Positions 1 to 57,715 of a stretch of DNA of 57,715 bases are shown here, in pieces (positions within the stretch are counted from its first letter, which is position 1; each line of letters starts with the position of its first letter). The notes below the pieces were generated by a model. It was not told the DNA's origin, made no database searches, and saw nothing but the letters and a program-made list of their open reading frames with translations. A program made the translations under genes and the position numbers. The stretch comes from a virus (Duplodnaviria; Caudoviricetes). Location: positions 1-57,715 of the IMG/VR virus record IMGVR_UViG_3300032212_000007; one strand, given 5' to 3'.

Positions 1-87
1 TTGGAAAGAAGCTGAACCATATATTATGAAGGATGCTAAATGGGCTTATAGGTATGCTAGACATGTACTTGAAGCTCCTTGGAAAGA
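1..87. repeat. Terminal overlap identical to 57629-57715 (circular assembly overlap inside a 78-bp tandem repeat)
   Basis: First 87 nt match the last 87 nt exactly; the reading frame continues across the join. Confidence 0.9.
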
Positions 88-736
88 AGCTGAACCATAT
101 ATTATGAAGGATGCTAAATGGGCTTATTGTTATGCTAAAAATATACTTGAAGCTCCTTGGCAAGAAGCTGAACCATATATTATGACGGATACTAAATATA
201 CTTGCTGGTATGCTAAAGATGTACTTAAAGCTCCTTGGAAAGAAGCTGAACCATATATTATGAAGGATGCTGAATGGGCTTATTACTATGCTAGTTATAT
301 ACTTCAAGCTCCTTTTCCAGAAGCTGAACCATATATTAAAAAGGATGCTGAATGGGCTTATAGGTATGTTAGATATATACTTAAAGCTCCTTTTCCAGAA
401 GCTGAACCATATATTAAAAAGGATGCTGAATGGGCTTATAGGTATGCTAGATATATACTTAATACTCCTTTTCCAGAAGCTGAACCATATATTAAAAAGG
501 ATGCTAAATGGGCTTATTACTATGCTGAGTGGGTGCTTAGAGGTTCTTGGGAAGATGCTGAACCATATATTAGAAAAGATAAGTTCTATGCTCAAATGTA
601 TTTACAATATGTATGTAGAATCCCTTTTCCTGAGGGTGCTAAATATTATGAAACAGGTAAATCAATTCCTGAACCAGTATTAATGAGGTATATAAACGCA
701 AATATGCCTCAAGAAGCCGAGGAAAATGATGCATAA
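2..736 (+). CDS. 26-aa tandem-repeat protein, paralog D, 3' part (continues from 57384 across the contig join; about 326 aa in total)
   Basis: Repeats of WAYxYAxxVLxAP(F/W)xEAEPYIxK; in frame with the ORF starting at 57384 once the 87-nt overlap is removed; unique C-terminal extension. Confidence 0.85.
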   Translation, partial: WKEAEPYIMKDAKWAYRYARHVLEAPWKEAEPYIMKDAKWAYCYAKNILEAPWQEAEPYIMTDTKYTCWYAKDVLKAPWKEAEPYIMKDAEWAYYYASYILQAPFPEAEPYIKKDAEWAYRYVRYILKAPFPEAEPYIKKDAEWAYRYARYILNTPFPEAEPYIKKDAKWAYYYAEWVLRGSWEDAEPYIRKDKFYAQMYLQYVCRIPFPEGAKYYETGKSIPEPVLMRYINANMPQEAEENDA

Positions 737-29131: not shown

Positions 29132-31079
29132 TACCTTGTGCTCCTTGTGTTAATTGCATGAGTAAAGCCATTTCTTTAGCTTTAGCTGGGTCATTAATTA
29201 CTTTGTCCGGATCTAAATCCATTGTCTTCGATATTTCTCTTGCTAAATACTCCCAATCTACTTGTGGAGCCATAGCAGGATTTGTGCCTAATAATTGTGC
29301 GAATGTCATAAGTCTTTGAGACTTAACTTCTCTCTGAAGTAATGAAGATGTTCCACGTGGTTTGATAGATATGTCTCCACGTATAGTAGGATTATCTTTA
29401 TTAAATTGCATATTCCATTGGAATAAAGCGTTACCAAACGGCTCTAAAATATCTCTATCTATATTCTTCACAACAGTTTTAATGTTTTGAGCGGTAGCTC
29501 CTAAGAGCATAGATGTTTGTGAAGCAGTTCTAATGCTTGAAGGTAAATTACCAGACCCAGTATAAAATCTGGGGATACCGGTCGCATCATCACTAAACTG
29601 CATTGCCTTATCCACTGCTGTAAAATGATTAAATGATGTGTCATTAAATGTAATCCCCCTTATAGCCTGTCCTTGACCACCTTTTGTGAATATATGTTTA
29701 CCGGGATATAATGCTAGATCCTGTCCCGGAACTAATCTGTTTTTATCAACTTCAAGAATTACACTTCCTGCCAGATTTAAGTTATCTATAGCTGCCCTCC
29801 AATGGGCATTCACAAGCTGTTGTGTATCTCTATTATTATGTGGAATTCCTTTGCCCCATATCTGATAATGTTGATCTTCATAAGCTGCAATGTTATATGG
29901 TATCCTCATTGGTATAAAAGGATTTACAACAGCTTTTAATAGCCTGCCTTCACATATGAATGCATTGATCTGATATTCATCAGTCTCTTTGAATTTTAAA
30001 CCTAATTGTTTAGCTAATTTACTATCAATATAACCCCAATATTCAAGCACCTCATACCTGTTATATAAATCAGATCTGTTACTGTCGGTTAAATTCTCCT
30101 CCCAGTGTTTCGGGACGTAACTCGGATCAAGAGCTACTAGCTCTTCTATTTTATCTTTCTTGAAACTCTTATTCTTTAATAAAGAACGTAATTTAGGTTT
30201 ATTCATTAAATGACGTTCAACGATACCTTTGCCCTCAGAAACCCTAGCAACACTATGGTCCGGATAGATATTCCAGATAGTAGGAGCGGAAACATCAGGT
30301 ATATTTATTGAATCCGGCTTGTATACTAACTCACCTTTGTCATTCTCTATCCACTTGTCACGCTTTTTAATTGTTGTGAAAGGCCCCTTCAAACATCCGC
30401 TACCTAAATGTGCTAATTCCCAACATGTCTTTGTTATTTTAGACTCAGCATCCATCTCAATGAATTGATCTTGGAATTGCTTGTTTAACTGTTCCGCAGA
30501 ACGTTTGGCAGGATGTATCTCTAATTCAGTAGGATCTGATGCCTGTCCTTTTTTAACTATAGCACCTGCGGATAGAAGTTTATTAAACTGCTTTTTAAGA
30601 CCTCCTAACATATTGCTAGTAGTGCCGGGAGGTATTTCCATGCCATCGCCGGGGAATCCTAATAGATCAGCAGGCTCCTCTTCGCTGTTTTCAGTACCTA
30701 AGCTGATGGTTACTGTATCTTCTATACCCTCGGGAATAGGTGTGGCATCTGCTGATATTGGGAACTTACCGTCCGCCGTTAGTATCTCTAATATATTACC
30801 ATATGCCGCTAAAGCCTTAACTGTCGAAGTCTTAATAAATACGGATGAAGCTAATGGATTTCGTTCTCTTAATTGGCTTATAATAGCTAATTGATCAGGG
30901 CTATATGTTCCTTTAACATCTTGTAAAGCACGTAACCACTCATCCTCATGGGGTCTTCTAGCATCTTCAGACTCCCTCATAAAGGACTCTATAACGCCTA
31001 CTAAAACCCTTTCCGCATCAGCTTTCTCTTTTAATTGAGCTTCTAAATCTTCGTTAATAAGTTCCATTCTATGCTCCAA
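28962..31079 (-). CDS. Portal protein
   Basis: 705 aa after TerL; GSGCLKGP, VLEYWG, IWGKGI, AAIDN...GS, RTASQTSML. Confidence 0.9.
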   Translation of the reverse strand: MEHRMELINEDLEAQLKEKADAERVLVGVIESFMRESEDARRPHEDEWLRALQDVKGTYSPDQLAIISQLRERNPLASSVFIKTSTVKALAAYGNILEILTADGKFPISADATPIPEGIEDTVTISLGTENSEEEPADLLGFPGDGMEIPPGTTSNMLGGLKKQFNKLLSAGAIVKKGQASDPTELEIHPAKRSAEQLNKQFQDQFIEMDAESKITKTCWELAHLGSGCLKGPFTTIKKRDKWIENDKGELVYKPDSINIPDVSAPTIWNIYPDHSVARVSEGKGIVERHLMNKPKLRSLLKNKSFKKDKIEELVALDPSYVPKHWEENLTDSNRSDLYNRYEVLEYWGYIDSKLAKQLGLKFKETDEYQINAFICEGRLLKAVVNPFIPMRIPYNIAAYEDQHYQIWGKGIPHNNRDTQQLVNAHWRAAIDNLNLAGSVILEVDKNRLVPGQDLALYPGKHIFTKGGQGQAIRGITFNDTSFNHFTAVDKAMQFSDDATGIPRFYTGSGNLPSSIRTASQTSMLLGATAQNIKTVVKNIDRDILEPFGNALFQWNMQFNKDNPTIRGDISIKPRGTSSLLQREVKSQRLMTFAQLLGTNPAMAPQVDWEYLAREISKTMDLDPDKVINDPAKAKEMALLMQLTQGAQGNGQAAGTTPPGTPPAGQLEGNGGVPSGANPADLSGVGGGNIGTGNIPQSGESNFTG

Positions 31080-33606
31080 ATGTACTATCCACTATCAGCG
31101 GAGTGGCTTGTTGGTATTGCCCGTGTAAGTACCCATCTCTGTAAGTTGGCATTTCTACCATCGTGTCTGGCATTGCCTGTAATCCATAACGTAACGCATC
31201 TATGGCATGGTCTGGTAAAGATGTTTTACGGGAAGTGTCTATATCCTCAGGGTTATTCTCACTTACCATGACTGTACTTAATTCTTGTATAATCTCTTTA
31301 CAGGTATCAAATATTTGTAACTTGGGTTTTAAGATGCCTAGAGAGTTTAACTGTGGTGCTAAATATTGATGTATGAGTTGTTTACTGGCTATACGTGATC
31401 CCTTACTACGATCTGCAGGAATCCATGTAAGCCCCTGTTCAGCCATTGTATCAATAATTGACTGTCCTATGCCTCCTCTATCAGAATCAATAGAACCATC
31501 TATATATCCTTCTTGAATAAAATCACCTTTCTCTAATTCCAATACTGTGACAGCAAACTCATCGGCTAATACTCTTTGTGTAGTTAGCTCACGATAAATA
31601 TATACGTTATCATCCCAGTCTGCAGCAAACCATAACACGGCTGCCATTGTGGAATACCCCCAGTCACATGCTCTCCATTTATACCAGTTAGGAGGTATTT
31701 TAAAGGGGCTAATAACATGGACAGGCTTTTTAAATTCCGGGAAAGCCAATCCGACAACTGCGTCCCATGATCCGTGTAATTCAGCATCACGTAATGCTTC
31801 ATCGGGGATAGCATATAAAGATGCAATATAATTAGGGTTAGATTTTAATAGGACTTTATTATCACTCCAGTGACCAAAGAACCATTTCCTAGTTAAAGTT
31901 AAGTCCCCTACTTCAGTTTCGTAGGTATTAACCAGCCTCTCCTCTTGATTCCCTATTTGAGTTGTATGATCAAACTCTATCTCCCAGCGATCTTTAACCC
32001 ATGACTTACCGGGGCCCCAAGGGTTACAGGTATTTCCTGAAATCCAGATAAATCCTTTCTGTCGAAGAAAGAATGTTTCATTATCCTGTACTCCAATACA
32101 ATATACATTACCTGTATATTTTTCATGGAAAAGATATTTATTATCCGGCTTAGTTGGGACCTGAATTGTCTTAGTAGTTAAAGTACCTGTTACACAGTAA
32201 CTATTACCGCCATAAGGATATATTCTCGTTGAGTAGCCTAGCTTTACCAGTATCTCTGCTATATCATCAATTAAATCTTTATCAACAGTAGTATATTTAA
32301 CTAACTCTATATCAGGACTATAGCGATGTGGGCCTATAACATAATGTAGTAATTCCTGATATTGTTCTAATGTAGCATATAACATGAAGTCACGTGGTAT
32401 GCGTTTATTACCTGCAATAATGAACTGTTTAAAGTAATCTATCATATCATCACGATAAATACTATAATCATCATGTCCACTGAATAATTTGTTCTGAGGT
32501 TTTAACCAATTACCAAAATATTCTATAAAAGATGATGGGGAAGCAAAGATATCCGGATAATCAAAACTCTGTATTGTTAGTGGATTATAAGAGTAATGGC
32601 ATCTCGCTATTTGTGTAGTCTTCCTTGTAATCTCGTTAAACGGTATTATCGTATCTTGATGAGTGATAGTATTACGTTCTACAACTCTATGATCTTTAGT
32701 GAATGACAAATACTTAGTACCATCTTTATATCTTACTAACTCTTCATCTTCAACAGGATATATAGCTGCCATTGTAACTGGCTTTAAACTCATTTTACCA
32801 CGTTCGTCAGTACTGTAAACTAAATCGCCCTTTCTTACATCCTGTATTGGCATCCAGCCTTTAGCTGTTAATACCTCTCCCTCATCTACACAACACCTTA
32901 ATGCGATTGGTAGGGTTGGGTCGGGAGATCTCATTGAGGCCTTTAAACGGTCTATAATCCATGAACCCCCATATTGAGCTATCTCATCAATGCCTACCCA
33001 TGTATATTCCTGTCCACGATAACGTTCTATATCATCTTGCTTATCACAATAACCAAGTTCTAATGTAGCTCCTGAAGGGAAAACAAACATACCAGCTTGT
33101 TGTTTCCATTTTGTACCGGGGTAGGCACTCTTATAAAGAAGCTCACAACGCTTTTGAAGCTCTCGTAAATCAGGCATTGATTTCCTGATTAACAAACCTC
33201 TAAAGTTCTTATTGGTGAAGTACGGCAAAGGGTCGGCTATTAGTGCGCTACTTTTAGCGGCTCCTCTTGTGCCTGAATATAATACCTCATCTTCTGTACT
33301 ACTTAAGAATCTAGCCTGTTTACCGGGATTAGCCGCTAATGCCTCTAAGTTCTCATCAATAGTGAGGTCAGGGTCATAATCAGGTAAGAACCCAATCTCT
33401 CTTGTATCTACAACTTTATCAGGTAAGATGTTATTCTCTAAGTCATCACGAACCTTTAACGCACTTTCAACAGCTTTATCAGCTTCTTCCTTCTCTATAA
33501 TCTGCTTAGTCGCAGTTTCTTTAGCATTTTTTAAAGGAGCTTTAATGTTCTTAATGCGTTTACCAGATGTCTTTCTCTTTCTTGCTGGTAGATTTTGTTT
33601 AACCAT
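31069..33606 (-). CDS. terL: Terminase large subunit, intein-containing
   Basis: LYSGTRGAAKS (Walker A), IGIDE-like VGIDE (Walker B), TCNPWGPG, ACDWG, PDHAIDALRY. Confidence 0.93.
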   Translation of the reverse strand: MVKQNLPARKRKTSGKRIKNIKAPLKNAKETATKQIIEKEEADKAVESALKVRDDLENNILPDKVVDTREIGFLPDYDPDLTIDENLEALAANPGKQARFLSSTEDEVLYSGTRGAAKSSALIADPLPYFTNKNFRGLLIRKSMPDLRELQKRCELLYKSAYPGTKWKQQAGMFVFPSGATLELGYCDKQDDIERYRGQEYTWVGIDEIAQYGGSWIIDRLKASMRSPDPTLPIALRCCVDEGEVLTAKGWMPIQDVRKGDLVYSTDERGKMSLKPVTMAAIYPVEDEELVRYKDGTKYLSFTKDHRVVERNTITHQDTIIPFNEITRKTTQIARCHYSYNPLTIQSFDYPDIFASPSSFIEYFGNWLKPQNKLFSGHDDYSIYRDDMIDYFKQFIIAGNKRIPRDFMLYATLEQYQELLHYVIGPHRYSPDIELVKYTTVDKDLIDDIAEILVKLGYSTRIYPYGGNSYCVTGTLTTKTIQVPTKPDNKYLFHEKYTGNVYCIGVQDNETFFLRQKGFIWISGNTCNPWGPGKSWVKDRWEIEFDHTTQIGNQEERLVNTYETEVGDLTLTRKWFFGHWSDNKVLLKSNPNYIASLYAIPDEALRDAELHGSWDAVVGLAFPEFKKPVHVISPFKIPPNWYKWRACDWGYSTMAAVLWFAADWDDNVYIYRELTTQRVLADEFAVTVLELEKGDFIQEGYIDGSIDSDRGGIGQSIIDTMAEQGLTWIPADRSKGSRIASKQLIHQYLAPQLNSLGILKPKLQIFDTCKEIIQELSTVMVSENNPEDIDTSRKTSLPDHAIDALRYGLQAMPDTMVEMPTYRDGYLHGQYQQATPLIVDSTFGA
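32032..32892 (-). mobile_element. Intein in TerL (about 287 aa)
   Basis: Starts CVDEGEVLT; block B FTKDHRV; block F VYCIGV; ends ISGN followed by T; removal restores ALRC|TCNP. Confidence 0.88.
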
Positions 33607-34773: not shown

Positions 34774-36858
34774 CTACGCTGCTAAATTCGCCATTGCTTT
34801 AAATACTGGTGCTGAGTAAGCTACTGCTGCTGTGCTGACAGTTGCATCACATACAGTGTCCACAACAACCGTTGTTCCTGTAACGCTGACAACCTTTTTA
34901 ACTCCTGTTACTCCCGCTATAGTAATATATACATTAGGTACTAGACCCAGTTCCGTAGATACCGTGATAGTTGCGGATGATGCCGTAGTATCGGCAGTTG
35001 TTGCTACTATCGTTCCATAAGTACCACTTTGAACACATGCCGTTCCTATTGATGAAGATGCGGTAGGTGTATCGTCAAACACTATATCACCTCTATACCA
35101 TGTCCTTTGGTACGAAGTTGTAGGTACGCTATTCGCACGATATATACTAAATTTCTCCCCATTCGCTGTGTCATCCCAGTCAAGTACTCTACCAGACCAT
35201 CTATTATCAGTTCCTGATGTCTCACCAATAGCATTAAGTGTGGTGTATGTACCATATATTGTGTTTCCTTTTACTGTAGTAGTAGGCCCAACCCTATTAT
35301 CAGTACTATGGAGGAAAAAAGAATAATGACAACTACTCTGTAGCTGATATATAACTCCTGCACAATCTTTAATGAGATTATTAGTAATCGTGGTGTAGAT
35401 TGTTTTGCGTATAAAGAAAACAGTCGATGCTGCGTTAATTATTGTATTACCATCTATTAAACATGATGTTAAGAAACCGTCGCCAACTTGTATTGCTGTA
35501 TCTGTATTTTCTATAACATTACCTTGTATTATATTAGCTTTATCATCATCTATAAATGATGTTCTGGATACTTGTACCCCATCTGTGACATTTCTAACCA
35601 GATTATCTTTAACTTTGAACCCTGTGACATTATCAGATACAAAAACGCCATATATTAATTTATCTGCTCCTGTTCCGTAACGTTCTTCACTCTGAATAAT
35701 ACGATTATCACTTACTGTTGTTGATTCTGTTCTAATAGATATGCCTGACATACTGCCATTAGTTACATTCCCTGTATCTATTACGTCATTACCTCTAATA
35801 ACATGCCCCACATCGGTTGTAATTACAGACGTATATGTTAATGTATTTAATGCCACTCTTGTGATAATTCCACCATATGGCGTGCCTGACTCTGCTGTAA
35901 CTCCATTTAATGCAGTACGCACTAGAGAATTATTAGTAACCATAACACCTAAAGTCCCACGGACATATATACCAGTTTCCCATGTATCGGATATCTTGTT
36001 GCCAGTTATTAACATTCTTCTCTGGAAAGTACTTCTGTCACCGGGGTCTGTTAATGTTCCTGTATATGCCTGTATACCAGCCTTAGGACCCTCTACAACA
36101 TTGTTACTAACAATTATTGGAGTTTCTCCCCAAGTCTGACTAATTGATATTCCTTGATCTAGCCCCGCAACAGAAACAAAGTTATTACTTATTATACCAT
36201 TATATGAAGAAGGAGTAACCACCCCCTGTAGCTGATCACTTGTAATACCTGCCGTTCCTGATAAATTAGTAGGGAAAGTTATAGTACCAGCATCAAGGCT
36301 TGCTATAGTTTTTCCAATATCAGCTATTATATTATTATCTAAAATTTTAAAGTCATTAGAATTATCATAAAAAACACCAATACTAAACTTATTCATTTTA
36401 CAATCTTTTATAGACCATCTTGAACAACCTGTAACCGATACACATGAATTTTGGTATATTATGGCTGAAGTAGGGAATGCTTTATCATCTGGGTCTTGAT
36501 TCCTGAAAGATAAGCCATCTATTGACCAATCATCTACACCGTTTGCATAAACTAAAGGATGATGATTAGCTCCAGCATCCGCTGATTTTAACCGCCCTTG
36601 TCCTGTCCAAATTACATTAGCTTTCTTTGTTATATAGCCATCTATCTCATATACACCCAAAGGGAAATATAGTGACACTGGTGACCCCTCAGTGACCGCC
36701 CTTGCTGCTGCTGCGTCTTCCGCTGCCTGTATATATGTTGTGTTGTTAGCTGCTGTTTCTAATGTGCTGGCACCATAGTCTAATATACTAAATGAAATAC
36801 GATCACCTAACGTGTATTTATCTCTCATATACCGACTTGTTACTTTTCTTCCTGTCAT
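34774..36858 (-). CDS. Tailspike with right-handed beta-helix (pectate lyase-like depolymerase)
   Basis: SILDYGA...IQAA...LYFPLGVY; repeated I.GN.I / V.NN beta-helix turns. Confidence 0.8.
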   Translation of the reverse strand: MTGRKVTSRYMRDKYTLGDRISFSILDYGASTLETAANNTTYIQAAEDAAAARAVTEGSPVSLYFPLGVYEIDGYITKKANVIWTGQGRLKSADAGANHHPLVYANGVDDWSIDGLSFRNQDPDDKAFPTSAIIYQNSCVSVTGCSRWSIKDCKMNKFSIGVFYDNSNDFKILDNNIIADIGKTIASLDAGTITFPTNLSGTAGITSDQLQGVVTPSSYNGIISNNFVSVAGLDQGISISQTWGETPIIVSNNVVEGPKAGIQAYTGTLTDPGDRSTFQRRMLITGNKISDTWETGIYVRGTLGVMVTNNSLVRTALNGVTAESGTPYGGIITRVALNTLTYTSVITTDVGHVIRGNDVIDTGNVTNGSMSGISIRTESTTVSDNRIIQSEERYGTGADKLIYGVFVSDNVTGFKVKDNLVRNVTDGVQVSRTSFIDDDKANIIQGNVIENTDTAIQVGDGFLTSCLIDGNTIINAASTVFFIRKTIYTTITNNLIKDCAGVIYQLQSSCHYSFFLHSTDNRVGPTTTVKGNTIYGTYTTLNAIGETSGTDNRWSGRVLDWDDTANGEKFSIYRANSVPTTSYQRTWYRGDIVFDDTPTASSSIGTACVQSGTYGTIVATTADTTASSATITVSTELGLVPNVYITIAGVTGVKKVVSVTGTTVVVDTVCDATVSTAAVAYSAPVFKAMANLAA

Positions 36859-41699: not shown

Positions 41700-41984
41700 A
41701 TGTATATAGAAGTAACAAGAGAAATGTTTATAAACGAGTTTAAAGCAATAAGACCTGACAATTTCAGTCATGAGGGGTTAAACGAACTATTTAACTATTT
41801 TGAACAATTAGAGGACGATTGCGATATGAGAATAGAGCTTGATGTAATTGCGATATGCTGCGAGTGGCGTGAAGACTCACTTCAAGACATACTAGACAAT
41901 TACCAACTTGAGTCACTGGAAGAGCTACAAGAGAATACCCACGTTATAGAGCTTGATAATACAATACTTTATAAGGAGTTTTAA
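41700..41984 (+). CDS. Hypothetical protein, paralog of 43666-43959
   Basis: FSHEGLNELFNY...IELDVIAICCEW. Confidence 0.7.
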   Translation: MYIEVTREMFINEFKAIRPDNFSHEGLNELFNYFEQLEDDCDMRIELDVIAICCEWREDSLQDILDNYQLESLEELQENTHVIELDNTILYKEF

Positions 41985-42933: not shown

Positions 42934-43016
42934 TCGTATAGACATTGATATTGAAGATGTAAAAATATACCTGCATGATATCTATCTCAAATATTTTAAA
43001 AACAGGAGCTAAACAA

Positions 43017-43661
43017 ATGACGTTACTAGACTATGATTTAAAAGAACTTATAAAGAATGCTAAACAGAGCGGAGCTTGTGGATATGGTTTAAAAGAGCTT
43101 AAAGAGCTTAAAGATATTAAACAAGCATTAAACCACCCTCAAGCTGCTTATTGGCTGTATTACTATGCTAAATATGTACTTAAAGCTCCTTGGAAAGAAG
43201 CTGAACCATATATTATGAAGGATACTGAATGGGCTTATTGGTATGCTAGATTTGTACTCAAAGCTCCTTGGAAAGAAGCTGAACCATATATTATGAAGGA
43301 TACTGAATGGGCTTATTACTATGCTGAATATGTACTTGAAGCTCCTTTTCCAGAAGCTGAACCATATATTATGAAGGATACTGAATGGGCTTATTACTAT
43401 GCTGAATATGTACTTGAAGCTCCTTTTCCAGAAGCTGAACCATATATTAAAAAGAATGCTAAATGGGCTTATTACTATGCTAGATTTGTACTTAAAGCTC
43501 CTTTTCCAGAAGCTGAACCATATATTATGAAGGAAGCTAAATGGGCTTATTGGTATGCTTATCACGTACTTAAAGCCCCTTTTCCAGAAGCTGAACCATA
43601 TATTACGAAAAGCCACTACTACAAGGAACTATACACTGACCACTTTAAAAACAGGAGCTAA
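43017..43661 (+). CDS. 26-aa tandem-repeat protein, paralog A (6 EAEPYI units)
   Basis: N-cap MTLLDYDLKELIKNA..., 78-bp repeats, C-cap ...DHFKNRS; RBS CAGGAG. Confidence 0.9.
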   Translation: MTLLDYDLKELIKNAKQSGACGYGLKELKELKDIKQALNHPQAAYWLYYYAKYVLKAPWKEAEPYIMKDTEWAYWYARFVLKAPWKEAEPYIMKDTEWAYYYAEYVLEAPFPEAEPYIMKDTEWAYYYAEYVLEAPFPEAEPYIKKNAKWAYYYARFVLKAPFPEAEPYIMKEAKWAYWYAYHVLKAPFPEAEPYITKSHYYKELYTDHFKNRS

Positions 43662-43665
43662 ACAA

Positions 43666-43959
43666 ATGTATATACCGATAACACAAAACATGTTTATAAA
43701 TAAATTCAAAACATTTAAAACGCATGGATTTAGTAAACAAGGATTAAAAGCCTTATACAAATATTATCAAGAATTAGAAGAAGATACAGGCCAATTAATA
43801 AGGCTGGATGTTAAAGCTATCTGTACAGAATGGTATGAACACCCCATTGAAACCGCTTTAAAAGCTTATGGCATACAAACAGTAGATCAACTATATGACT
43901 ACACGCCCGTGATAGAAATCCTAAATACATCTACAATAATTTACCAGCCATATTATTAG
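43666..43959 (+). CDS. Hypothetical protein, paralog of 41700-41984
   Basis: MYIPITQNMFINKFK...FSKQGLKALYKY...IRLDVKAICTEW. Confidence 0.7.
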   Translation: MYIPITQNMFINKFKTFKTHGFSKQGLKALYKYYQELEEDTGQLIRLDVKAICTEWYEHPIETALKAYGIQTVDQLYDYTPVIEILNTSTIIYQPYY

Positions 43960-43971
43960 GAGATTAGAACC

Positions 43972-44223
43972 ATGCTTAAAAAGAAGCCTAAATATATAGC
44001 AGTACATAATAACGACGAAGAATTACTAGGAATCATCACGGGTGATATAGCATTCCAACAAAGACTTCAAGCATTAATTGAAGATGAGTATTCAGTAGAG
44101 TTTACAGCTATAATCGATATAGAGCCTATAAAATATCAAATAAACACTATTACTATTGATATATATGACTCATTACTTTATAGTAAAGTACCGCTAACAT
44201 TATCCGAAACATTTCTATATTAA
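43972..44223 (+). CDS. Hypothetical protein
   Basis: AGGAG RBS, 83 aa. Confidence 0.55.
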   Translation: MLKKKPKYIAVHNNDEELLGIITGDIAFQQRLQALIEDEYSVEFTAIIDIEPIKYQINTITIDIYDSLLYSKVPLTLSETFLY

Positions 44224-44235
44224 GGAGCTAAACAA

Positions 44236-45114
44236 ATGACGTTACTAGACTATGATTTAAAAGAGCTTATAAAGAATGCTAAACAGAGTGGGGCTTGTGA
44301 AAATGAGTTAAAAGAGCTAAAAGAGCTTAAAGATATTAAACAGGCTTTAAACCACCCTCAAGCTGCTTTTTGGCTGTATTGGTATGCTAGAGATGTACTT
44401 GAAGCTCCTTTTCCAGAAGCTGAACCATATATTATGAAGGATGTTAAATGGGCTTATAAGTATACTAGAGATGTACTTGAAGCTCCTTGGAAAGAAGCTG
44501 AACCATATATTATGAAGGAAGCTGAATGGGCTTATTACTATGCTGTAACTGCACTTAAAGCTCCTTGGAAAGAAGCTGAACCGTATATTAAAAAAGATGT
44601 TAAATGGGCTTATTACTATGCTAAATATGTACTTCAAGCTCCTTGGAAAGAGGCTGAACCATATATTATGAAGGATGCTAAATGGGCTTATTACTATGCT
44701 ATAAATGTACTTAAAGCTCCTTGGAAAGAAGCTGAACCATATATTATGAAGGATGCTAAATGGGCTTGTTACTATGCTAGATATGTACTTAAAGCTCCTT
44801 TTCCAGAAGCTGAACCATATATTATGAAGGAAGCTAAATGGGCTTATTGGTATGCTTATCACGTACTTAAAGCCCCTTTTCCAGAAGCTGAACCATATAT
44901 TATGAAGGATGCTGAATCGGCGTGTAATTATGCTAGATATATACTCAAAGCTCCTTTTCCAGAAGCTGAACCATATATTATGAAGGATGCTAAATGGGCT
45001 TATAGGTATGCTAGATATATACTTAATACTCCTTTTCCAGAAGCTGAACCATATATTAAGGAAAATAGCTACTACTATGAATGTTACACTGATCACTTTA
45101 AAAACAGGAGCTAA
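44236..45114 (+). CDS. 26-aa tandem-repeat protein, paralog B (9 EAEPYI units)
   Basis: Same N-cap, 78-bp repeats, C-cap ENSYYYECYTDHFKNRS. Confidence 0.9.
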   Translation: MTLLDYDLKELIKNAKQSGACENELKELKELKDIKQALNHPQAAFWLYWYARDVLEAPFPEAEPYIMKDVKWAYKYTRDVLEAPWKEAEPYIMKEAEWAYYYAVTALKAPWKEAEPYIKKDVKWAYYYAKYVLQAPWKEAEPYIMKDAKWAYYYAINVLKAPWKEAEPYIMKDAKWACYYARYVLKAPFPEAEPYIMKEAKWAYWYAYHVLKAPFPEAEPYIMKDAESACNYARYILKAPFPEAEPYIMKDAKWAYRYARYILNTPFPEAEPYIKENSYYYECYTDHFKNRS

Positions 45115-45118
45115 ACAA

Positions 45119-45742
45119 ATGATATTACTAACAATTATTGGACTACCATTACTAGCCTTTTTAAACCGTTTAAAGGGCGTAAAAGTAAAACAACTAGGCT
45201 GGACAAGAGTGCCACTAGTATATACAATAACTGGCCTATATGCTGCCCTGCTTGCCTATACAGTCGGACTCCCGCCACACATTGTCCTAATCTGTCTCGG
45301 CTATGGCTTAACCTACGCACTATGGAGACAAAAAGGGCCTACATTAGCTTGGATAGGTGGTCAAAGTTGGTGGAATCCTCATTGGGAAAAGCCTAACCAT
45401 AAATATATAAATATACTTTTAAAGAAATTTCATAGACTTGATATAGATGATGTAGATATATACTATAACAGCTTACGAATTAGATTAGGCAATATAGGCG
45501 GAGCATATAGGGGATTCCTCTACTTTATTCCTTTTATGCTGTTAGCTGGCTTTATACATCCTATTGGATATTTAACAGCATTGACAAGCCTTTTCTATGG
45601 TTATATACATACTATAACAGGCGAATACGGACCGTGGGGAACTATGAAAGATATGGTGAAAAGAGCAGAGATACTTAGCGGTGTAATAATACTATACCCA
45701 AATATCGTTTTACCGATTTTAATGCGTGGACTAATTACTTAA
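45119..45742 (+). CDS. Multi-pass membrane protein (start MILLTII)
   Basis: Several hydrophobic helices; RBS CAGGAG. Confidence 0.65.
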   Translation: MILLTIIGLPLLAFLNRLKGVKVKQLGWTRVPLVYTITGLYAALLAYTVGLPPHIVLICLGYGLTYALWRQKGPTLAWIGGQSWWNPHWEKPNHKYINILLKKFHRLDIDDVDIYYNSLRIRLGNIGGAYRGFLYFIPFMLLAGFIHPIGYLTALTSLFYGYIHTITGEYGPWGTMKDMVKRAEILSGVIILYPNIVLPILMRGLIT

Positions 45743-46806: not shown

Positions 46807-47049
46807 ATGAATAATAAAGATATAAAGATGGAAGTGATAATATTTGATGATGGTGACGAATGTACATATGAGGATGTTACATTTAATGTGGTATATTATA
46901 CATTCAAAGAACATCATACAGAAAATATTATATATACATGGACAGAAATAGTTGACTATAGTTACGATAACAAGTACAGTAACTTAGAACAATTAAATAC
47001 ACACTTGGAAAAGTCATTATATGACGAATTGGAGGAGATTGAAGAATGA
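46807..47049 (+). CDS. Hypothetical acidic protein
   Basis: 80-aa ORF coupled to its neighbours. Confidence 0.5.
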
Positions 47050-47537
47050 ATGAAAGAGAACTTAGACAAGTATTAGAGCAGCATGTTCTTTGGTTAGAGG
47101 GTAAAGATGGGGGGAGGAGGGCTGACTTGAGAGAGGTTAACTTGAGAGGTACTGACTTTAGGGATACTAACTTGAGAGGTGCTGACTTTATGGGTGCTGA
47201 CTTGAGAAATGCTGACTTGGGAGGTGCTGACTTGAGAGGTGCTGACTTTATGGGTGCTGACTTTATGGGAGCTAACTTGATGGGAGCTAACTTGATGGGA
47301 GCTAACTTGATGGGGGTTGATTTGAGGGATGTCGTAGGTAACGGTATAGAAATAAAACACAGTAGTGAGTATCATTACCATCTGTCGTGGACAAAAGACA
47401 CTTTAGCTATCGGCTGTAAACAATATCTCATAGAAGACTGGAATAGTTTTAGTGACGAAGAAATAGATACTATGGCCCATGGTGCCCTTGATTGGTGGAA
47501 AGAATATAAAGATGAAGTTATGGAGTTAGTAAAATGA
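47046..47537 (+). CDS. Pentapeptide repeat protein
   Basis: About 14 A(D/N)Lxx units (15-bp DNA repeats); C-terminal LAIGCKQY...WW domain. Confidence 0.9.
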
Positions 47538-54221: not shown

Positions 54222-54290
54222 ATTTAGCTACCCTACTGTATAAAATATAGTTAAAGCCTCTGCACGGCCTTTAAAAGCCGTTTAAACACT
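54222..54290. repeat. 69-bp inverted repeat, left arm
   Basis: 65/69 identical to the reverse complement of 55624-55692. Confidence 0.9.
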
Positions 54291-54627
54291 ATTCCATCCA
54301 TTCAGAGACATCTAACAGATACACATCACTATATTCTATATCATAAATAGGAATAATATCATTTAAAAGACTGAAAACATCTGTATCTAGTTCATTTACA
54401 TAAATAGTATACATAAAACGTTCTTTAATGGATGTGTTACGTCCTCCGTCGATCAAATCAGGATGGGGAGGTTCAGTACTGTCCATACAATGAGCTGTAA
54501 AGCCAGCTTCAAATTCCTGATAATTATCAATAAGCATAGATTCAAATGCCATAATATCCTTTTCTTTAGCACCACTAAACACCTTAAAAACTATCTTTAA
54601 CTTTTTGTTGTATTTAACATTTAACAT
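54289..54627 (-). CDS. Hypothetical protein, the only credible minus-strand gene of the early region
   Basis: GGAG RBS, own promoter, stop abuts the left IR arm. Confidence 0.6.
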   Translation of the reverse strand: MLNVKYNKKLKIVFKVFSGAKEKDIMAFESMLIDNYQEFEAGFTAHCMDSTEPPHPDLIDGGRNTSIKERFMYTIYVNELDTDVFSLLNDIIPIYDIEYSDVYLLDVSEWME

Positions 54628-54667
54628 TTCAATAACTCCATATAACTAATTTTTAACTATGTAACCT

Positions 54668-54696
54668 GTTATAAGTCCCAGAAAACTATCTGTCAA
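54668..54696 (-). promoter_or_regulatory. Sigma70 promoter for 54289-54627
   Basis: Minus strand TTGACA-17 nt-TATAAC. Confidence 0.7.
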
Positions 54697-54710
54697 GCAG
54701 TAAGTTACAT

Positions 54711-55200
54711 CTGTAACCTGTAACTATTCTTTTCCGCCACATCCGGAGGATGTCACAGTTAAACACCTGTTTAACATCCTTTTAACTGTGTTTAACTACT
54801 TTAAAAGACTTTTAACTATATGTTTTAAAGGGAAATACAGAAGCTGTACCGTAACTAGAACCTTTTAACTTCCATTAAAAAAGGGCTTTAAGCAGCTTTA
54901 AACTCCTTATAGCCCTGTAACCTGTAACTATTCTTTTCCGCCACATCCGGAGGATGTCACAGTTAAACACCTGTTTAACATCCTTTTAACTACTTTAAAA
55001 GACTTTTAACTATCTTTTAACTATCTTTTAACATCTGTTTAACTGTGTTTAACTACTTTAAAAGTCTTTTAACTATCTTTTAACTTTGTTTCTTAAAGGG
55101 GTCTTTACAGGATGTAACGTAACTAGAAACTTTTAACATCTGTTAAACAGCCTTTAAAGCTGCCTTATAGCTACCTATCAGCTGCCTCTCAGCTACCCCC
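54711..55200. repeat. Non-coding tandem duplication with palindromes and TTTAAC(T/A) iterons; candidate replication origin or ncRNA
   Basis: 77-bp identical copies at 54711-54787 and 54915-54991, each with ACATCC-GGA-GGATGT and GTTAAACA-CC-TGTTTAAC; more than 10 TTTAAC(T/A) units. Confidence 0.8.
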
Positions 55201-55220
55201 CTTACCCCCCTATGGCTCGC

Positions 55221-55249
55221 ATTATAGTCTCCTTCGATACCTTTGTCAA
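55221..55249 (-). promoter_or_regulatory. Consensus sigma70 promoter pointing into the non-coding repeat region
   Basis: Minus strand TTGACA-aaggtatcgaaggagac(17)-TATAAT with an upstream A-tract. Confidence 0.85.
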
Positions 55250-55352
55250 GTCTTTTTTTTCTGCACTTATAAAATATTTTTTAAAATAGTGCTTGACATT
55301 TTTATAATTACCTTTCACTATACCTTTTAACGAATTTTAAAGAGAATAAACC

Positions 55353-55619
55353 ATGATACAAGAACATCGATGCAAAACCTTAGCACAAGCCGTTTTGCTA
55401 ACTTTTATAAAAGATTGTTTCAGAACGGGACCAGATATTAGCTCGGCTGATAAAAGATCATATGACGAGAATTGGGCTATGGTGGAATCCCTCGTACCTA
55501 ATGAAGACTTCATCGAGATCTGCTATAACGCTGGTGCCAATCCTAGTATCGTCAAACAAAAGTTACTAGAATTTAAGAATGACCCTATAATGAGCGGGTT
55601 CATAACTATGTTAGAATAG
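55353..55619 (+). CDS. Hypothetical protein
   Basis: LAQAVL...DFIEICYNAG.NP; stop abuts the right IR arm. Confidence 0.6.
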   Translation: MIQEHRCKTLAQAVLLTFIKDCFRTGPDISSADKRSYDENWAMVESLVPNEDFIEICYNAGANPSIVKQKLLEFKNDPIMSGFITMLE

Positions 55620-55623
55620 AAAC

Positions 55624-55692
55624 AGTGTTTAAACGGATTTTAAAGGCCGTACAGAGGCTTTAGCTATATTTTATATAGTAGGGTAGCTAAAT
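55624..55692. repeat. 69-bp inverted repeat, right arm
   Basis: Reverse complement of 54222-54290 with 4 mismatches. Confidence 0.9.
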
Positions 55693-55752: not shown

Positions 55753-56037
55753 ATGTATACCACGAAAAAAGAAGCTTATAGAGAAGCTAGATATCAGAGC
55801 AAGAATGATTATACATCTGCTATGATACATGGCTTTATAGATGAATTCACTATTGAAGTGGAAAAACATTTACCTGACATATCACAGAGTGAAATACTAG
55901 AGATATTCCAGAATGTAAATAAACAATTTGGAATTGGTATAAAATTTTTAGATTTAGTGATTGACATCCTAAAAGAATATTGGTATTACTACTCCTTAGT
56001 AGACTTTTCTGCTATTTATCAGGAGCTAAACAAATGA
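55753..56037 (+). CDS. Hypothetical protein
   Basis: GAGGA RBS; ATGA overlap with paralog C. Confidence 0.55.
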   Translation: MYTTKKEAYREARYQSKNDYTSAMIHGFIDEFTIEVEKHLPDISQSEILEIFQNVNKQFGIGIKFLDLVIDILKEYWYYYSLVDFSAIYQELNK

Positions 56038-56597
56038 CATTACTAGACTATGATTTAAAAGAGCTTATAAAGAATGCTGAACAGAGTGGAGCTTGTGGAT
56101 ATGGTTTAAAAGAGCTTAAAAAGTTTAAAGATATTAAACAGGCTTTAAACCACCCTCAAGCTGCTTTTTGGCTGTATTGGTATGCTAGAAATGTACTTAA
56201 AGCCCCTTTTCCAGAAGCTGAACCATATATTATGAAGAATACTAAATGGCCTTATTACTATGCTATAAATGTACTTAAAGCCCCTTTTCCAGAAGCTGAA
56301 CCATATATTATGAAGGGAAGTGAATGGACTTATTACTATGCTAGAGATGTACTTAAAGCCCCTTTTCCAGAAGCTGAACCATATATTATGAAGGATGCTA
56401 ACTGGGCTTATTGGTATGCTTATCACGTACGTAAAGCCCCTTTTCCAGAAGCTGAACCATATATCATGAAGGCCGCTCAATGGGCTTATTACTATGCTAG
56501 AAATGTACTTAAAGCTCCTTTTCCAGAAGCTGAACCATATATTAAGGAAAATAGCTACTACTACGGACTTTACACTAATTACTTTAACCAAACTTAG
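56034..56597 (+). CDS. 26-aa tandem-repeat protein, paralog C (5 EAEPYI units)
   Basis: Same N-cap, 78-bp repeats, C-cap ENSYYYGLYTNYFNQT. Confidence 0.9.
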   Translation: MTLLDYDLKELIKNAEQSGACGYGLKELKKFKDIKQALNHPQAAFWLYWYARNVLKAPFPEAEPYIMKNTKWPYYYAINVLKAPFPEAEPYIMKGSEWTYYYARDVLKAPFPEAEPYIMKDANWAYWYAYHVRKAPFPEAEPYIMKAAQWAYYYARNVLKAPFPEAEPYIKENSYYYGLYTNYFNQT

Positions 56598-57383: not shown

Positions 57384-57715
57384 ATGTTAGACTATGACTT
57401 AAAAGAACTTATAAAGAATGTTGAACAGAGTGGAGCTTGTGAAAATGAGTTAAAAGAGCTAAAAGAGTTTAAAGATATTAAACAGGCTTTAAACCACCCT
57501 CAAGCTGCTTTTTGGCTGTATTGGTATACTGTAAAAGTACTCAAAGCTCCTTGGCAAGAAGCTGAACCATATATTATGAAGGATGCTGAATGGGCTTATA
57601 GGTATGCTAGACATGTACTTGAAGCTCCTTGGAAAGAAGCTGAACCATATATTATGAAGGATGCTAAATGGGCTTATAGGTATGCTAGACATGTACTTGA
57701 AGCTCCTTGGAAAGA
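57384..57715 (+). CDS. 26-aa tandem-repeat protein, paralog D, 5' part (runs off the end and continues at the window start)
   Basis: MLDYDLKELIKNVEQSGACENELKE... followed by repeats; no stop before the end. Confidence 0.85.
   Translation, partial: MLDYDLKELIKNVEQSGACENELKELKEFKDIKQALNHPQAAFWLYWYTVKVLKAPWQEAEPYIMKDAEWAYRYARHVLEAPWKEAEPYIMKDAKWAYRYARHVLEAPWK

What the first reader, a model, noticed from the sequence alone, without database searches (positions are those of the whole stretch)
43017..45114. Four-member family of 26-aa repeat proteins with a fixed framework and a hypervariable face: candidate phage-encoded modular binder system
Seen: paralogs A (43017-43661, 6 units), B (44236-45114, 9), C (56034-56597, 5) and D (57384 wrapping to 736, 9 plus a degenerate unit). 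Each has a shared ~45-aa N-cap and a short C-cap. The unit is x-x-x-W-A-Y-X-Y-A-X-X-V-L-x-A-P-(FP/WK)-E-A-E-P-Y-I-(M/K)-K. The EAEPYI half is almost invariant even at DNA level. Positions 1-3, 7, 10-11 and 14 vary strongly: position 7 is Y/W/R/K/C/N, and positions 10-11 are KY, RF, EY, YH, RD, VT, IN, RY, RN, RH, KN, KD, SY, EW or VK. Established: i, i+3/4, i+7 spacing places residues on one helix face, and Tyr/Trp/Arg-rich variable faces on capped helical solenoids are how ankyrin/HEAT-derived binders (DARPins, alphaReps) work; TALE, PPR and PUF proteins read nucleic acids with a per-repeat residue code. Inference: these are programmable binders in the early region, either anti-defence/host-takeover protein binders or nucleic-acid readers with one repeat per base. 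I cannot assign the repeat to a named family.
Basis: partly seen in the sequence, partly recalled or inferred. Interest (0 to 1): 0.92.

Follow-up and report, generated by a model that had tools for sequence, protein, structure and literature searches.

The report
Phage family of hypervariable helical-repeat proteins
Four related genes in this uncultured phage encode helical-repeat proteins with a fixed core and one fast-evolving surface stripe, and they belong to a large, unnamed, almost phage-only family that probably binds changing host targets.

Summary
Four paralogs carry 6, 9, 5 and 9 (plus one degenerate) copies of a 26-aa / 78-bp unit. D's count is uncertain, because the record's 87-bp terminal overlap lies inside its array.

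AlphaFold2 models B as a capped two-helix solenoid (pLDDT 90.8). PDB fold matches are only generic (Foldseek best E 0.011; VIA Z at most 6.9). No Pfam, NCBIfam, PHROG or PADLOC family explains the repeat.

The proteins are not orphans. A profile found 6,431 cluster representatives at E <= 0.001 and 73 viral loci. One contig holds at least 23 tandem paralogs. tblastn found no repeat match in 50,697 GenBank phage records.

Positions 3, 7, 10 and 11 of helix A gain nonsynonymous changes 3.0-3.7 times faster than the synonymous rate predicts. The excess recurs at positions 3, 7 and 10 in two other phages' paralog sets and at position 11 in one of them.

Best reading: diversifying binding modules, most likely for host proteins. 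No target is known. A TALE- or PUF-like one-repeat-per-base code is disfavoured (279 residue triplets in 463 units).

The parts
43017..43661 (+). Paralog A: 42-aa N-cap, 6 units of 26 aa, short C-cap
   Evidence: 78-bp array 43153-43609
44236..45114 (+). Paralog B: 42-aa N-cap, 9 units, short C-cap. Modelled by AlphaFold2 as a two-helix solenoid.
   Evidence: array 44383-45058
56034..56597 (+). Paralog C: N-cap, 5 units, short C-cap
   Evidence: array 56181-56544
57384..57715 (+). Paralog D, 5' part: N-cap and the first units. It runs off the end of the record.
   Evidence: array 57537-57715
1..736 (+). Paralog D, 3' part. Bases 1-87 repeat the last 87 bases of the window. It holds the remaining units, one degenerate unit and a divergent C-terminal tail.
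   Evidence: array 1-572
43004..43019 (+). Exact 16-mer (ribosome-binding site plus ATG) at the start of A
   Evidence: 5 exact copies plus one 1-mismatch copy; 0.04 matches expected by chance at up to 2 mismatches
43653..43668 (+). The same 16-mer, spanning the stop of A and the start of the next gene
44223..44238 (+). The same 16-mer at the start of B
45106..45121 (+). The same 16-mer, spanning the stop of B and the start of the next gene
56021..56036 (+). The same 16-mer at the start of C

Best explanation
A-D are members of a large, almost phage-only, unnamed family of capped alpha-solenoid proteins.

Architecture: each protein is built from a 26-residue unit. Helix A spans positions 2-13, a loop spans 14-17, and helix B spans 18-24. 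Core positions (5, 8, 9, 12, 13) and helix B (the EAEPYI segment) are fixed. A narrow stripe on helix A (positions 3, 7, 10, 11, with 1 and 14 at its edge) is under diversifying selection.

Origin of the paralogs: they arose by gene duplication followed by gain and loss of 78-bp units.

Most likely function: the proteins act as binding modules whose variable stripe recognises changing macromolecular targets, probably host proteins, during the pre-replicative part of infection. That could be host takeover or counter-defence.

Shown by computation: the repeat anatomy, the predicted fold, the spread of the family, the paralog expansions and the excess of nonsynonymous change.

Inferred only: that the stripe binds something, that the target is a protein, and the timing of expression.
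For: - Anatomy.
- Fold: the AlphaFold2 model of B has pLDDT 90.8 and pTM 0.81, with a regular 12-residue plus 7-residue helix pair in each unit. The ESM Atlas's own model has pTM 0.82 and its neighbours are viral hypothetical proteins and HEAT-type importins at TM 0.5-0.6.
- One helix face: positions 3, 7, 10, 11 and 14 span -20 to +80 degrees on an ideal helix. Positions 5, 8, 9, 12 and 13 span 140-280 degrees (geometry applied).
- Selection in the window (29 units): nonsynonymous changes at positions 3, 7, 10 and 11 are 3.2, 3.0, 3.6 and 3.7 times the neutral expectation from the array-wide synonymous rate (Poisson P from 1.3e-5 to 6.5e-4).
- Replicated in 117 units of one 85-kb viral contig: ratios of 5.2, 5.2, 2.7 and 3.9, all with P <= 3.4e-6.
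- Replicated more weakly in 40 units of locus L010: ratios of 1.8, 1.4 and 1.4 at positions 3, 7 and 10.
- Family-wide: in 511 units from 111 distinct proteins, positions 7, 3 and 10 have the highest entropy (3.87, 3.60, 3.21 bits), followed by position 4 (3.10) and position 11 (2.90).
- Spread: 6,431 / 4,359 / 1,063 cluster representatives at E <= 1e-3 / 1e-10 / 1e-30, and 73 viral loci.
- Paralog arrays: at least 23 tandem paralogs in one contig and 3-5 in several others.
- Cellular genomes: only 12 loci among 185,579 species genomes, 11 of them in MAGs.
- No hypermutation machinery: no reverse transcriptase in the genome, so this is not a diversity-generating retroelement.
- Duplication history: the best nucleotide matches of units lie between paralogs at corresponding places (A6-B7 76/78, A5-B6 75/78, B1-C1 75/78, B9-D8 74/78). 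Mean unit identity is the same within and between genes (82.3% against 82.2%).
Against: - No binding partner, target or expression data exist. The only run that holds the phage is DNA.
- Exposure of the variable stripe is inferred from helix periodicity, not read from coordinates.
- The selection test is a home-made parsimony count on short, recombining units. The tree was built from the same 78 nt, and recombination violates the tree.
- In L010 the excess is modest and position 11 shows none (ratio 0.63).
- No conserved neighbour gene recurs across loci, so context gives no clue to the target. The clusters that did recur were alternative frames of the arrays or near-identical contigs.
- The family is missing from cultured phages in GenBank, so no experimental system supports any function.
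- Unit order inside the arrays depends on a short-read assembly.
Confidence: 0.5

Rival explanations
1. Sequence-specific readers of single-stranded RNA or DNA (or of duplex DNA), with one repeat per nucleotide and a residue code at positions 7, 10 and 11, as in PUF, PPR or TALE proteins.
For: - In the window the variable stripe is rich in residues typical of base stacking and edge contacts. Position 7 is Y13/W8/R5, position 10 is R14/K4, and position 11 is Y10/H5/N5/D4.
- PUF domains appear among the weak fold matches: 1ib2 at Foldseek E 0.17 and TMq 0.31, and 6ny5_B at Z 5.2.
Against: - Residue triplets at positions 7/10/11 are nearly continuous: 279 distinct in 463 distinct units, with the top four making 11%. 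A four-letter code should give a few dominant combinations (recalled from TALE and PUF literature).
- The proteins are near-neutral or acidic (pI 5.3, 5.9, 6.4 and 8.3), with conserved acidic residues at positions 1, 19 and 21.
- Repeat length and helix count differ from PUF, PPR and TALE.
- No Pfam hit to these families at E <= 1 in 4 of 4 proteins.
Confidence: 0.12
2. A structural, scaffold or chaperone-like solenoid with no specific variable ligand. On this reading the surface stripe varies simply because it is unconstrained, and tandem repeats recombine easily.
For: - Surface positions of any repeat protein vary most.
- Fold matches are only generic solenoids.
- No conserved partner gene was found.
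- The N-terminal domain of the long-form relatives has a homolog annotated as 'structural protein' in Pseudomonas phage PA5oct.
Against: - Relaxed constraint can raise the nonsynonymous rate only up to the synonymous rate. Here it is 3.0-3.7 times higher in the window and up to 5.2 times higher in a second phage.
- Repeated expansion to many paralogs per genome is not expected for a scaffold.
- A-D lie among small + strand ORFs, outside the - strand structural block.
Confidence: 0.18
3. An acidic DNA mimic, in the manner of Ocr, ArdA or pentapeptide-repeat proteins. It would use the invariant E19 and E21 (and D1) as a phosphate-like array to block restriction or other DNA-binding defences.
For: - E19 and E21 are conserved in 85% and 97% of 511 family units and recur once per unit along a solenoid.
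- A pentapeptide-repeat protein is encoded nearby at 47046-47537.
Against: - Net charge is close to zero: K+R against D+E is 28/31, 42/43, 22/20 and 45/53. Known DNA mimics are strongly acidic (recalled).
- The conserved glutamates sit at the start of helix B, where they can be structural.
- This model does not explain diversifying selection on helix A.
Confidence: 0.05

Closest known systems
HEAT / ARM-type alpha-solenoids and their engineered derivatives (alphaRep, designed armadillo and designed helical repeat proteins)
   Same: - Two antiparallel helices per unit stack into a capped solenoid.
- The best structural neighbours are AP-2/AP-3/COPI HEAT-like trunks, PP2A A subunit, designed repeat proteins and an alphaRep, at Z 4.5-6.9 and TM 0.5-0.6.
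- The design is a fixed framework with a variable face.
   Different: - The unit is 26 aa, against about 31 aa in alphaRep and 37-47 aa in HEAT (lengths recalled).
- No Pfam HEAT or ARM match at E <= 1.
- Z values are within the range the tool says is common for unrelated helical repeats.
- The family is almost phage-only.
Fungal NLR repeat domains (WD40/ANK/TPR) with highly similar repeats and hypervariable positions under positive selection (recalled; only search listings seen, e.g. PMC10197012)
   Same: High repeat-to-repeat DNA identity, a few hypervariable positions on one surface, positive selection, variable unit number and many paralogs.
   Different: Different folds, a different kingdom and a different role (host receptors rather than viral genes). 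No NOD or effector domain is present here. This is an analogy of evolutionary mode only.
Poxvirus and giant-virus ankyrin-repeat multigene families
   Same: Viral expansions of repeat-protein paralogs thought to bind host proteins. Giant-virus ANK, TPR and DUF4116 proteins are weak structural neighbours (E 0.02-0.4).
   Different: Repeats are 33 aa with a different fold. The PRANC/F-box adaptor domain is absent. The hosts are eukaryotic. No sequence relation was found.
PUF / PPR / TALE nucleic-acid code readers
   Same: Tandem helical units with a few specificity positions per unit.
   Different: Units are 34-36 aa. The specificity residues form a small discrete code, whereas here there are 279 triplets in 463 units. 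No Pfam match.
Pfam PF24591 Phage_YunG-like
   Same: The whole-protein score exceeds the 27-bit cut-off in 3 of 4 paralogs (27.4, 32.1 and 34.1 bits; D scores 23.3).
   Different: Each hit covers only profile positions 23-47 of 99, which is about one repeat. At most one stretch passes on its own, and that only in B. The score is a sum of weak repeat hits, as it is for PF01512 and PF13693.

Membership tests
HEAT repeat (Pfam HEAT clan) | Match to a HEAT-family profile | tested here: not met
   hmmscan against Pfam-A at E <= 1: 0 of 4 paralogs match any HEAT, ARM or TPR model
HEAT repeat (Pfam HEAT clan) | Unit of about 37-47 residues (length recalled) | tested here: not met
   The unit is exactly 26 aa / 78 bp in all 25 anchor-to-anchor spacings
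HEAT repeat (Pfam HEAT clan) | Two antiparallel helices per unit stacked into a solenoid | tested here: met
   DSSP of the AlphaFold2 model shows helices of 12 and 7 residues in each unit. Fold neighbours include HEAT proteins at Z 5-6.9, which is within the generic range.
TALE repeats | 33-35-aa units with a two-residue variable loop (RVD) drawn from a few types | tested here: not met
   The units are 26 aa. The variable residues lie inside helix A. The top four 7/10/11 triplets make 11% of 463 units.
PUF (Pumilio) repeats | Pfam PUF match and 36-aa three-helix units | tested here: not met
   No Pfam PUF hit, and there are two helices per 26-aa unit. Structural similarity is weak (Foldseek E 0.16-0.17; Z 5.2), so fold kinship itself is inconclusive.
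PF24591 Phage_YunG-like | A domain-level match over most of the 99-position profile | tested here: not met
   Only profile positions 23-47 match. At most one stretch passes alone.
Diversity-generating retroelement target protein | A reverse transcriptase encoded in the same element | tested here: not met
   PF00078 search of the whole 57,715-bp record gave 0 matches, while the controls gave hits in 3 genomes
Known anti-phage defence proteins (PADLOC) | Profile match | tested here: not met
   0 of 5 proteins match at E <= 0.01
Unnamed 26-aa phage repeat family (this report) | 26-aa unit with the family consensus, conserved at positions 5, 8, 9, 17, 19-22 and 24 | tested here: met
   B finds 646 proteins at E <= 1e-3 among 8,000 scored candidates. 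The family logo comes from 511 units. A profile search finds 6,431 representatives.
Unnamed 26-aa phage repeat family (this report) | The 'GAC...HP.A..W..WYA' N-cap subclass and the aromatic C-cap | tested here: met
   Alignment of the four window N-caps with 8 others (P0104, P0088 and ORFs of L025, L027, L035, L041) gives that 75% consensus. The C-caps are seen. D lacks the short C-cap.

The most novel reading that the evidence does not exclude
These genes may be a phage-encoded repertoire of binders. Multi-gene arrays (4 genes here, at least 23 in another phage) of a minimal 26-residue solenoid would diversify a four-residue-per-unit paratope by point change and by shuffling of 78-bp units. 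Different paralogs would then neutralise or hijack different, fast-evolving host proteins such as defence systems. The constant 42-aa N-cap, or the roughly 240-aa N-domain of the long forms, could be a common adaptor or effector module. That would make the family a viral analog of ankyrin/F-box or antibody-like repertoires.
Probability: 0.25. Interest if true: 0.85.

Novelty: new variant of a known kind. Interest (0 to 1): 0.62.

Why it matters
- If the reading holds, this is one of the larger uncharacterised phage protein families: 6,431 clusters at 50% identity. It has no Pfam model, and I found no paper on it (four searches).
- The family shows a clear and replicated signal of diversifying selection on a defined surface. 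That makes it a concrete entry point to phage-host arms-race biology in uncultured phages.
- Thousands of natural 26-residue units with known framework and variable positions are also a ready-made data set for consensus design of very compact binder scaffolds.
- For genome curation there is a caution. The 'direct terminal repeat' used to call this record complete lies inside a coding tandem repeat.

Tried and rejected
- Named families: Pfam, PHROGs, NCBIfam and PADLOC scans of the paralogs gave only summed weak repeat hits (PF24591, PF01512, PF13693, phrog_33523, NF011152) or nothing. I reject them as family assignments.
- PDB by sequence: only an E 0.53 chance hit for B, and an E 0.53 hit for the long-form profile.
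- Fold searches: Foldseek against PDB gave no match at E <= 0.001 for the B model or for the long-form P0085 model. VIA-align wide gave Z <= 6.9. BFVD's best hit was an uncharacterised uncultured-phage protein at E 0.014. Families that are not listed are not excluded by these searches.
- Long-form relatives: I folded P0085 (pLDDT 87.3) to learn what the repeats are fused to. Its N-domain, with a conserved T-x-W-C motif, has no fold or family match. Giant relatives of 900-2,250 aa showed only spurious summed hits, plus ankyrin repeats in one of 11.
- Close relatives of the phage: megablast and tblastn against GenBank phages found none. A single-protein scan of viral contigs found none. Ortholog-based dN/dS was therefore not possible.
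- N-cap alone (residues 1-48): no homolog through the word index. It was found only by aligning family members.
- Conserved neighbour genes: none was found. The recurrent clusters were alternative frames of the arrays or near-identical contigs.
- Promoter and terminator scan: not above shuffled expectation (75 found against 79.6 expected), so it gives no timing evidence.
- Sequencing runs: one DNA holder was listed (a microbial mat metagenome) and no RNA holder was listed. Its contigs break in the arrays and show no informative variants.
- Pairwise pN/pS was superseded by the tree-based count. One search also ended in a division-by-zero error after printing its main table.
- DGR-type hypermutation is rejected because no reverse transcriptase is present.
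- The DNA-mimic reading is rejected on charge.
- Complex prediction was not used, because I name no specific partner.
- No paper was read beyond search listings, and no supplements were consulted.
Full report
**What is in the sequence**

The window is a complete-looking 57,715-bp IMG/VR virus record with 36.7% G+C.

Four + strand ORFs share an N-terminal cap and then carry tandem 26-aa units. In every gene the AEPYI anchors are exactly 26 residues apart.
- A: 43017-43661, 6 units.
- B: 44236-45114, 9 units.
- C: 56034-56597, 5 units.
- D: 57384 to the end of the record, continuing at its start to 736, 9 units plus a degenerate one.

Tandem Repeats Finder reports the corresponding 78-bp arrays at 86-96% matches. 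A search of the whole record finds no further copies.

Over the 29 units, positions 8 and 20-24 never change. Positions 11, 10, 7 and 3 are the most variable, at 2.57, 2.28, 1.97 and 1.89 bits.
- D lacks the short C-cap of A-C and has its own tail.
- The N-cap is 42 aa in A-C and 40 aa in D.
- The record's 'direct terminal repeat' is an exact 87-bp overlap (78 + 9) inside D's array, where neighbouring units D2 and D3 differ at 1 of 78 nt. D's unit count is therefore a minimum.

Contigs of the only run that holds the phage break inside the arrays.

**Fold**

AlphaFold2 used a 14-sequence alignment and gave B a mean pLDDT of 90.8 and pTM of 0.81. Every unit is a 12-residue helix (positions 2-13), a 4-residue loop, a 7-residue helix (positions 18-24) and a 3-residue loop. 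Three short N-cap helices and one C-cap helix close the ends.

The ESM Atlas's own model agrees (pTM 0.82). Its structural neighbours are viral hypothetical proteins, followed by importin-type HEAT proteins at TM 0.5-0.6.

- Foldseek against PDB finds nothing at E <= 0.001.
- The exhaustive VIA-align search tops out at Z 6.9, on AP-2/AP-3/COPI trunks, Sel1-like, PPR-like, PUF and designed repeat proteins. The tool itself rates that range as common for unrelated helical repeats.
- BFVD's best hit is an uncharacterised uncultured-phage protein at E 0.014.

On an ideal helix, positions 3, 7, 10, 11 and 14 lie between -20 and +80 degrees. The conserved positions 5, 8, 9, 12 and 13 lie between 140 and 280 degrees. 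The variable residues should therefore form one stripe along the layer of A helices. This is geometry applied. I could not read coordinates.

**Family**

No Pfam, NCBIfam, PHROG or PADLOC model explains the repeat. The hits that appear (PF24591, PF01512, PF13693 and others) each cover about one repeat's worth of the profile and are sums of weak matches.

The proteins are nevertheless far from alone.
- B finds 646 proteins at E <= 1e-3 among 8,000 scored candidates. The best are 45-57% identical.
- A profile search of 1.84 billion cluster representatives finds 6,431, 4,359 and 1,063 at E <= 1e-3, 1e-10 and 1e-30. Some of these proteins are 1,500-2,250 aa long.
- A scan of IMG/VR gives 73 loci, in contigs from 4 kb to 479 kb.

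From 511 units in 111 distinct proteins the family consensus is DPEWAYWYARDVIKGRWPEAEPYIAK. Positions 5, 8, 9, 17, 19-22 and 24 are conserved. Entropy is highest at positions 7, 3, 10, 4 and 11.

Relatives have three kinds of N-terminus:
- a domain of about 240 aa with a conserved T-x-W-C motif;
- a short 'NLY..H.NPE.L.GY' cap;
- the cap seen here, with 75% consensus A...GAC...HP.A..W..WYA, shared with P0104, P0088 and ORFs of L025, L027, L035 and L041.

The long N-domain has no family or fold match. It does have 26-27% identical homologs in PA5oct-like Pseudomonas jumbo phages, annotated as 'structural protein' in PA5oct.

The repeat itself finds nothing in 50,697 GenBank phage records. In 185,579 species genomes there are only 12 loci. 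Eleven are in MAGs and one is in a Chromobacterium isolate.

Paralog expansion recurs. One 85-kb contig has at least 23 tandem genes with 3-9 scored units each, and other loci hold 3-5. Seven contigs contribute two or three separate loci.

**Evolution**

Mean nucleotide identity between units is 82%, the same within and between genes. The best matches link corresponding units of different paralogs: A6-B7 76/78, A5-B6 75/78, B1-C1 75/78 and B9-D8 74/78. The paralogs therefore descend from duplicated genes that later gained or lost units.

A and B are each bracketed by an exact 16-mer (ribosome-binding site plus ATG), which also precedes C. There are five exact copies and one copy with a single mismatch, where 0.04 matches are expected by chance at up to 2 mismatches. 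A second small gene family is duplicated alongside: 41700-41984 and 43669-43959 are 41% identical at E 2e-28.

I tested selection as follows.
- I built a tree of the units and counted synonymous and nonsynonymous changes per codon by parsimony.
- I compared the nonsynonymous count at each codon with the neutral expectation from the array-wide synonymous rate.

Results:
- Window: positions 3, 7, 10 and 11 show 3.2, 3.0, 3.6 and 3.7 times the expectation (P 1.8e-4, 6.5e-4, 6.4e-5, 1.3e-5). Positions 8 and 20-24 show none.
- 117 units of the contig with at least 23 paralogs: ratios of 5.2, 5.2, 2.7 and 3.9 (P <= 3.4e-6).
- 40 units of L010: ratios of 1.8, 1.4, 1.4 and 0.63.

Pairwise pN/pS points the same way. 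The method is crude: the sequences are short, the units recombine, and the tree is built from the same sites. Even so, the excess is too large for relaxed constraint alone, and for positions 3, 7 and 10 it falls on the same codons in three unrelated phages (position 11 in two of the three). No reverse transcriptase is present, so this is not DGR mutagenesis.

**Context**

The replication module sits at 0.9-12 kb on the + strand. It includes a gp2.5-like SSB, primase-helicase, a family A polymerase and ribonucleotide reductase. The structural and packaging genes sit at about 13.8-40 kb on the - strand.

A and B lie in a 13-kb run of small + strand ORFs without known families, starting at about 41 kb. 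C and D lie at the head of the + strand block that starts at about 55.35 kb and runs into the replication genes. Calling these genes 'early' is an inference from this layout. The promoter scan was uninformative.

**Function**

The data best fit a binding scaffold whose helix-A stripe tracks changing targets. I favour protein targets for three reasons.
- The residue combinations at positions 7/10/11 are almost continuous: 279 distinct in 463 distinct units, with the top four making 11%.
- The proteins are near-neutral, with pI 5.3-8.3.
- Expanded viral repeat families usually bind host proteins (recalled).

The stripe in this phage is rich in Tyr, Trp, Arg, His and Asn. That composition suits protein interfaces, but it also keeps a nucleic-acid reading alive at low probability.

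A purely structural role and a DNA-mimic role are less likely, for the reasons given under the rival explanations. No target, partner or phenotype is known, and no conserved neighbour gene helps.

**Novelty**

Four literature searches found no description of this repeat. One used motif strings and three used topical word sets. I saw only the search listings.

The kind of system is known: a capped alpha-solenoid with a hypervariable face and paralog expansion. This family is not described. It has a 26-residue unit, a near phage-only distribution, thousands of members and a replicated selection signal. I rate it a new variant of a known kind, with interest 0.62.

Noticed in passing
window 1-87 and 57629-57715: The 'direct terminal repeat' that marks this record as complete is an exact 87-bp overlap inside the 78-bp coding tandem repeat of gene D. 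Closure of the circle is plausible, because the gene reads in frame across it. The overlap could still hide extra identical units.
   Followed up: partly
window 47046-47537 (+): A 163-aa pentapeptide-repeat protein (PF00805, E 9.5e-23) lies in the same block of small ORFs. The DNA is a 15-bp tandem repeat.
   Followed up: partly
window 41700-41984 and 43669-43959 (+): A second small paralog pair (41% identity, E 2e-28) with no Pfam family. One copy directly follows paralog A, which suggests segmental duplication of the neighbourhood.
   Followed up: partly
window 31069-33606 (-): The terminase large subunit ORF is 845 aa. Its PHROG matches are split into residues 26-228 and 526-812, leaving about 300 unexplained residues in the middle. 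Pfam gives nothing. This may be an inserted element or domain.
   Followed up: no
window 7637-10318 (+): The ribonucleotide reductase large subunit is 893 aa. Its Pfam N-domain covers residues 11-73 and the best-scoring barrel-domain stretch starts at residue 446. Pfam leaves the stretch between unmatched, though PHROG ribonucleotide-reductase profiles span much of it; two further weak PHROG hits (PhoH-like and thymidylate-synthase families) fall at residues 151-365.
   Followed up: no
window 54250-55665: A divergent intergenic region. It holds an 11-bp tandem repeat (54974-55085, about 10.6 copies) and a 12/12 sigma-70 consensus promoter on the - strand (55249-55221). Two near-identical hairpin terminators flank it, at 54271-54253 (-) and 55643-55661 (+).
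   Followed up: no
window 34774-36858 (-): A 694-aa protein with a right-handed beta-helix (PF13229, E 9.8e-15). It is a likely tail spike or depolymerase-type protein.
   Followed up: no
window 43128-43616, 44347-45096, 56145-56591, 2-595 (all -): Long antisense and alternative-frame ORFs run through every array. They are by-products of the repeat, and they also cluster across other phages' arrays.
   Followed up: yes
L019 and L030 (one 84,887-bp viral contig): At least 23 tandem paralogs of the same family, each with an identical-looking 59-61-aa N-cap and 3-9 scored units. This is the largest expansion seen.
   Followed up: partly
GenBank phage records H1-H11 (PA5oct-like Pseudomonas jumbo phages): The roughly 200-aa N-terminal domain fused to the repeats in long-form relatives has 26-27% identical homologs in these phages. 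It is annotated 'structural protein' in PA5oct. The repeats themselves are absent there.
   Followed up: no
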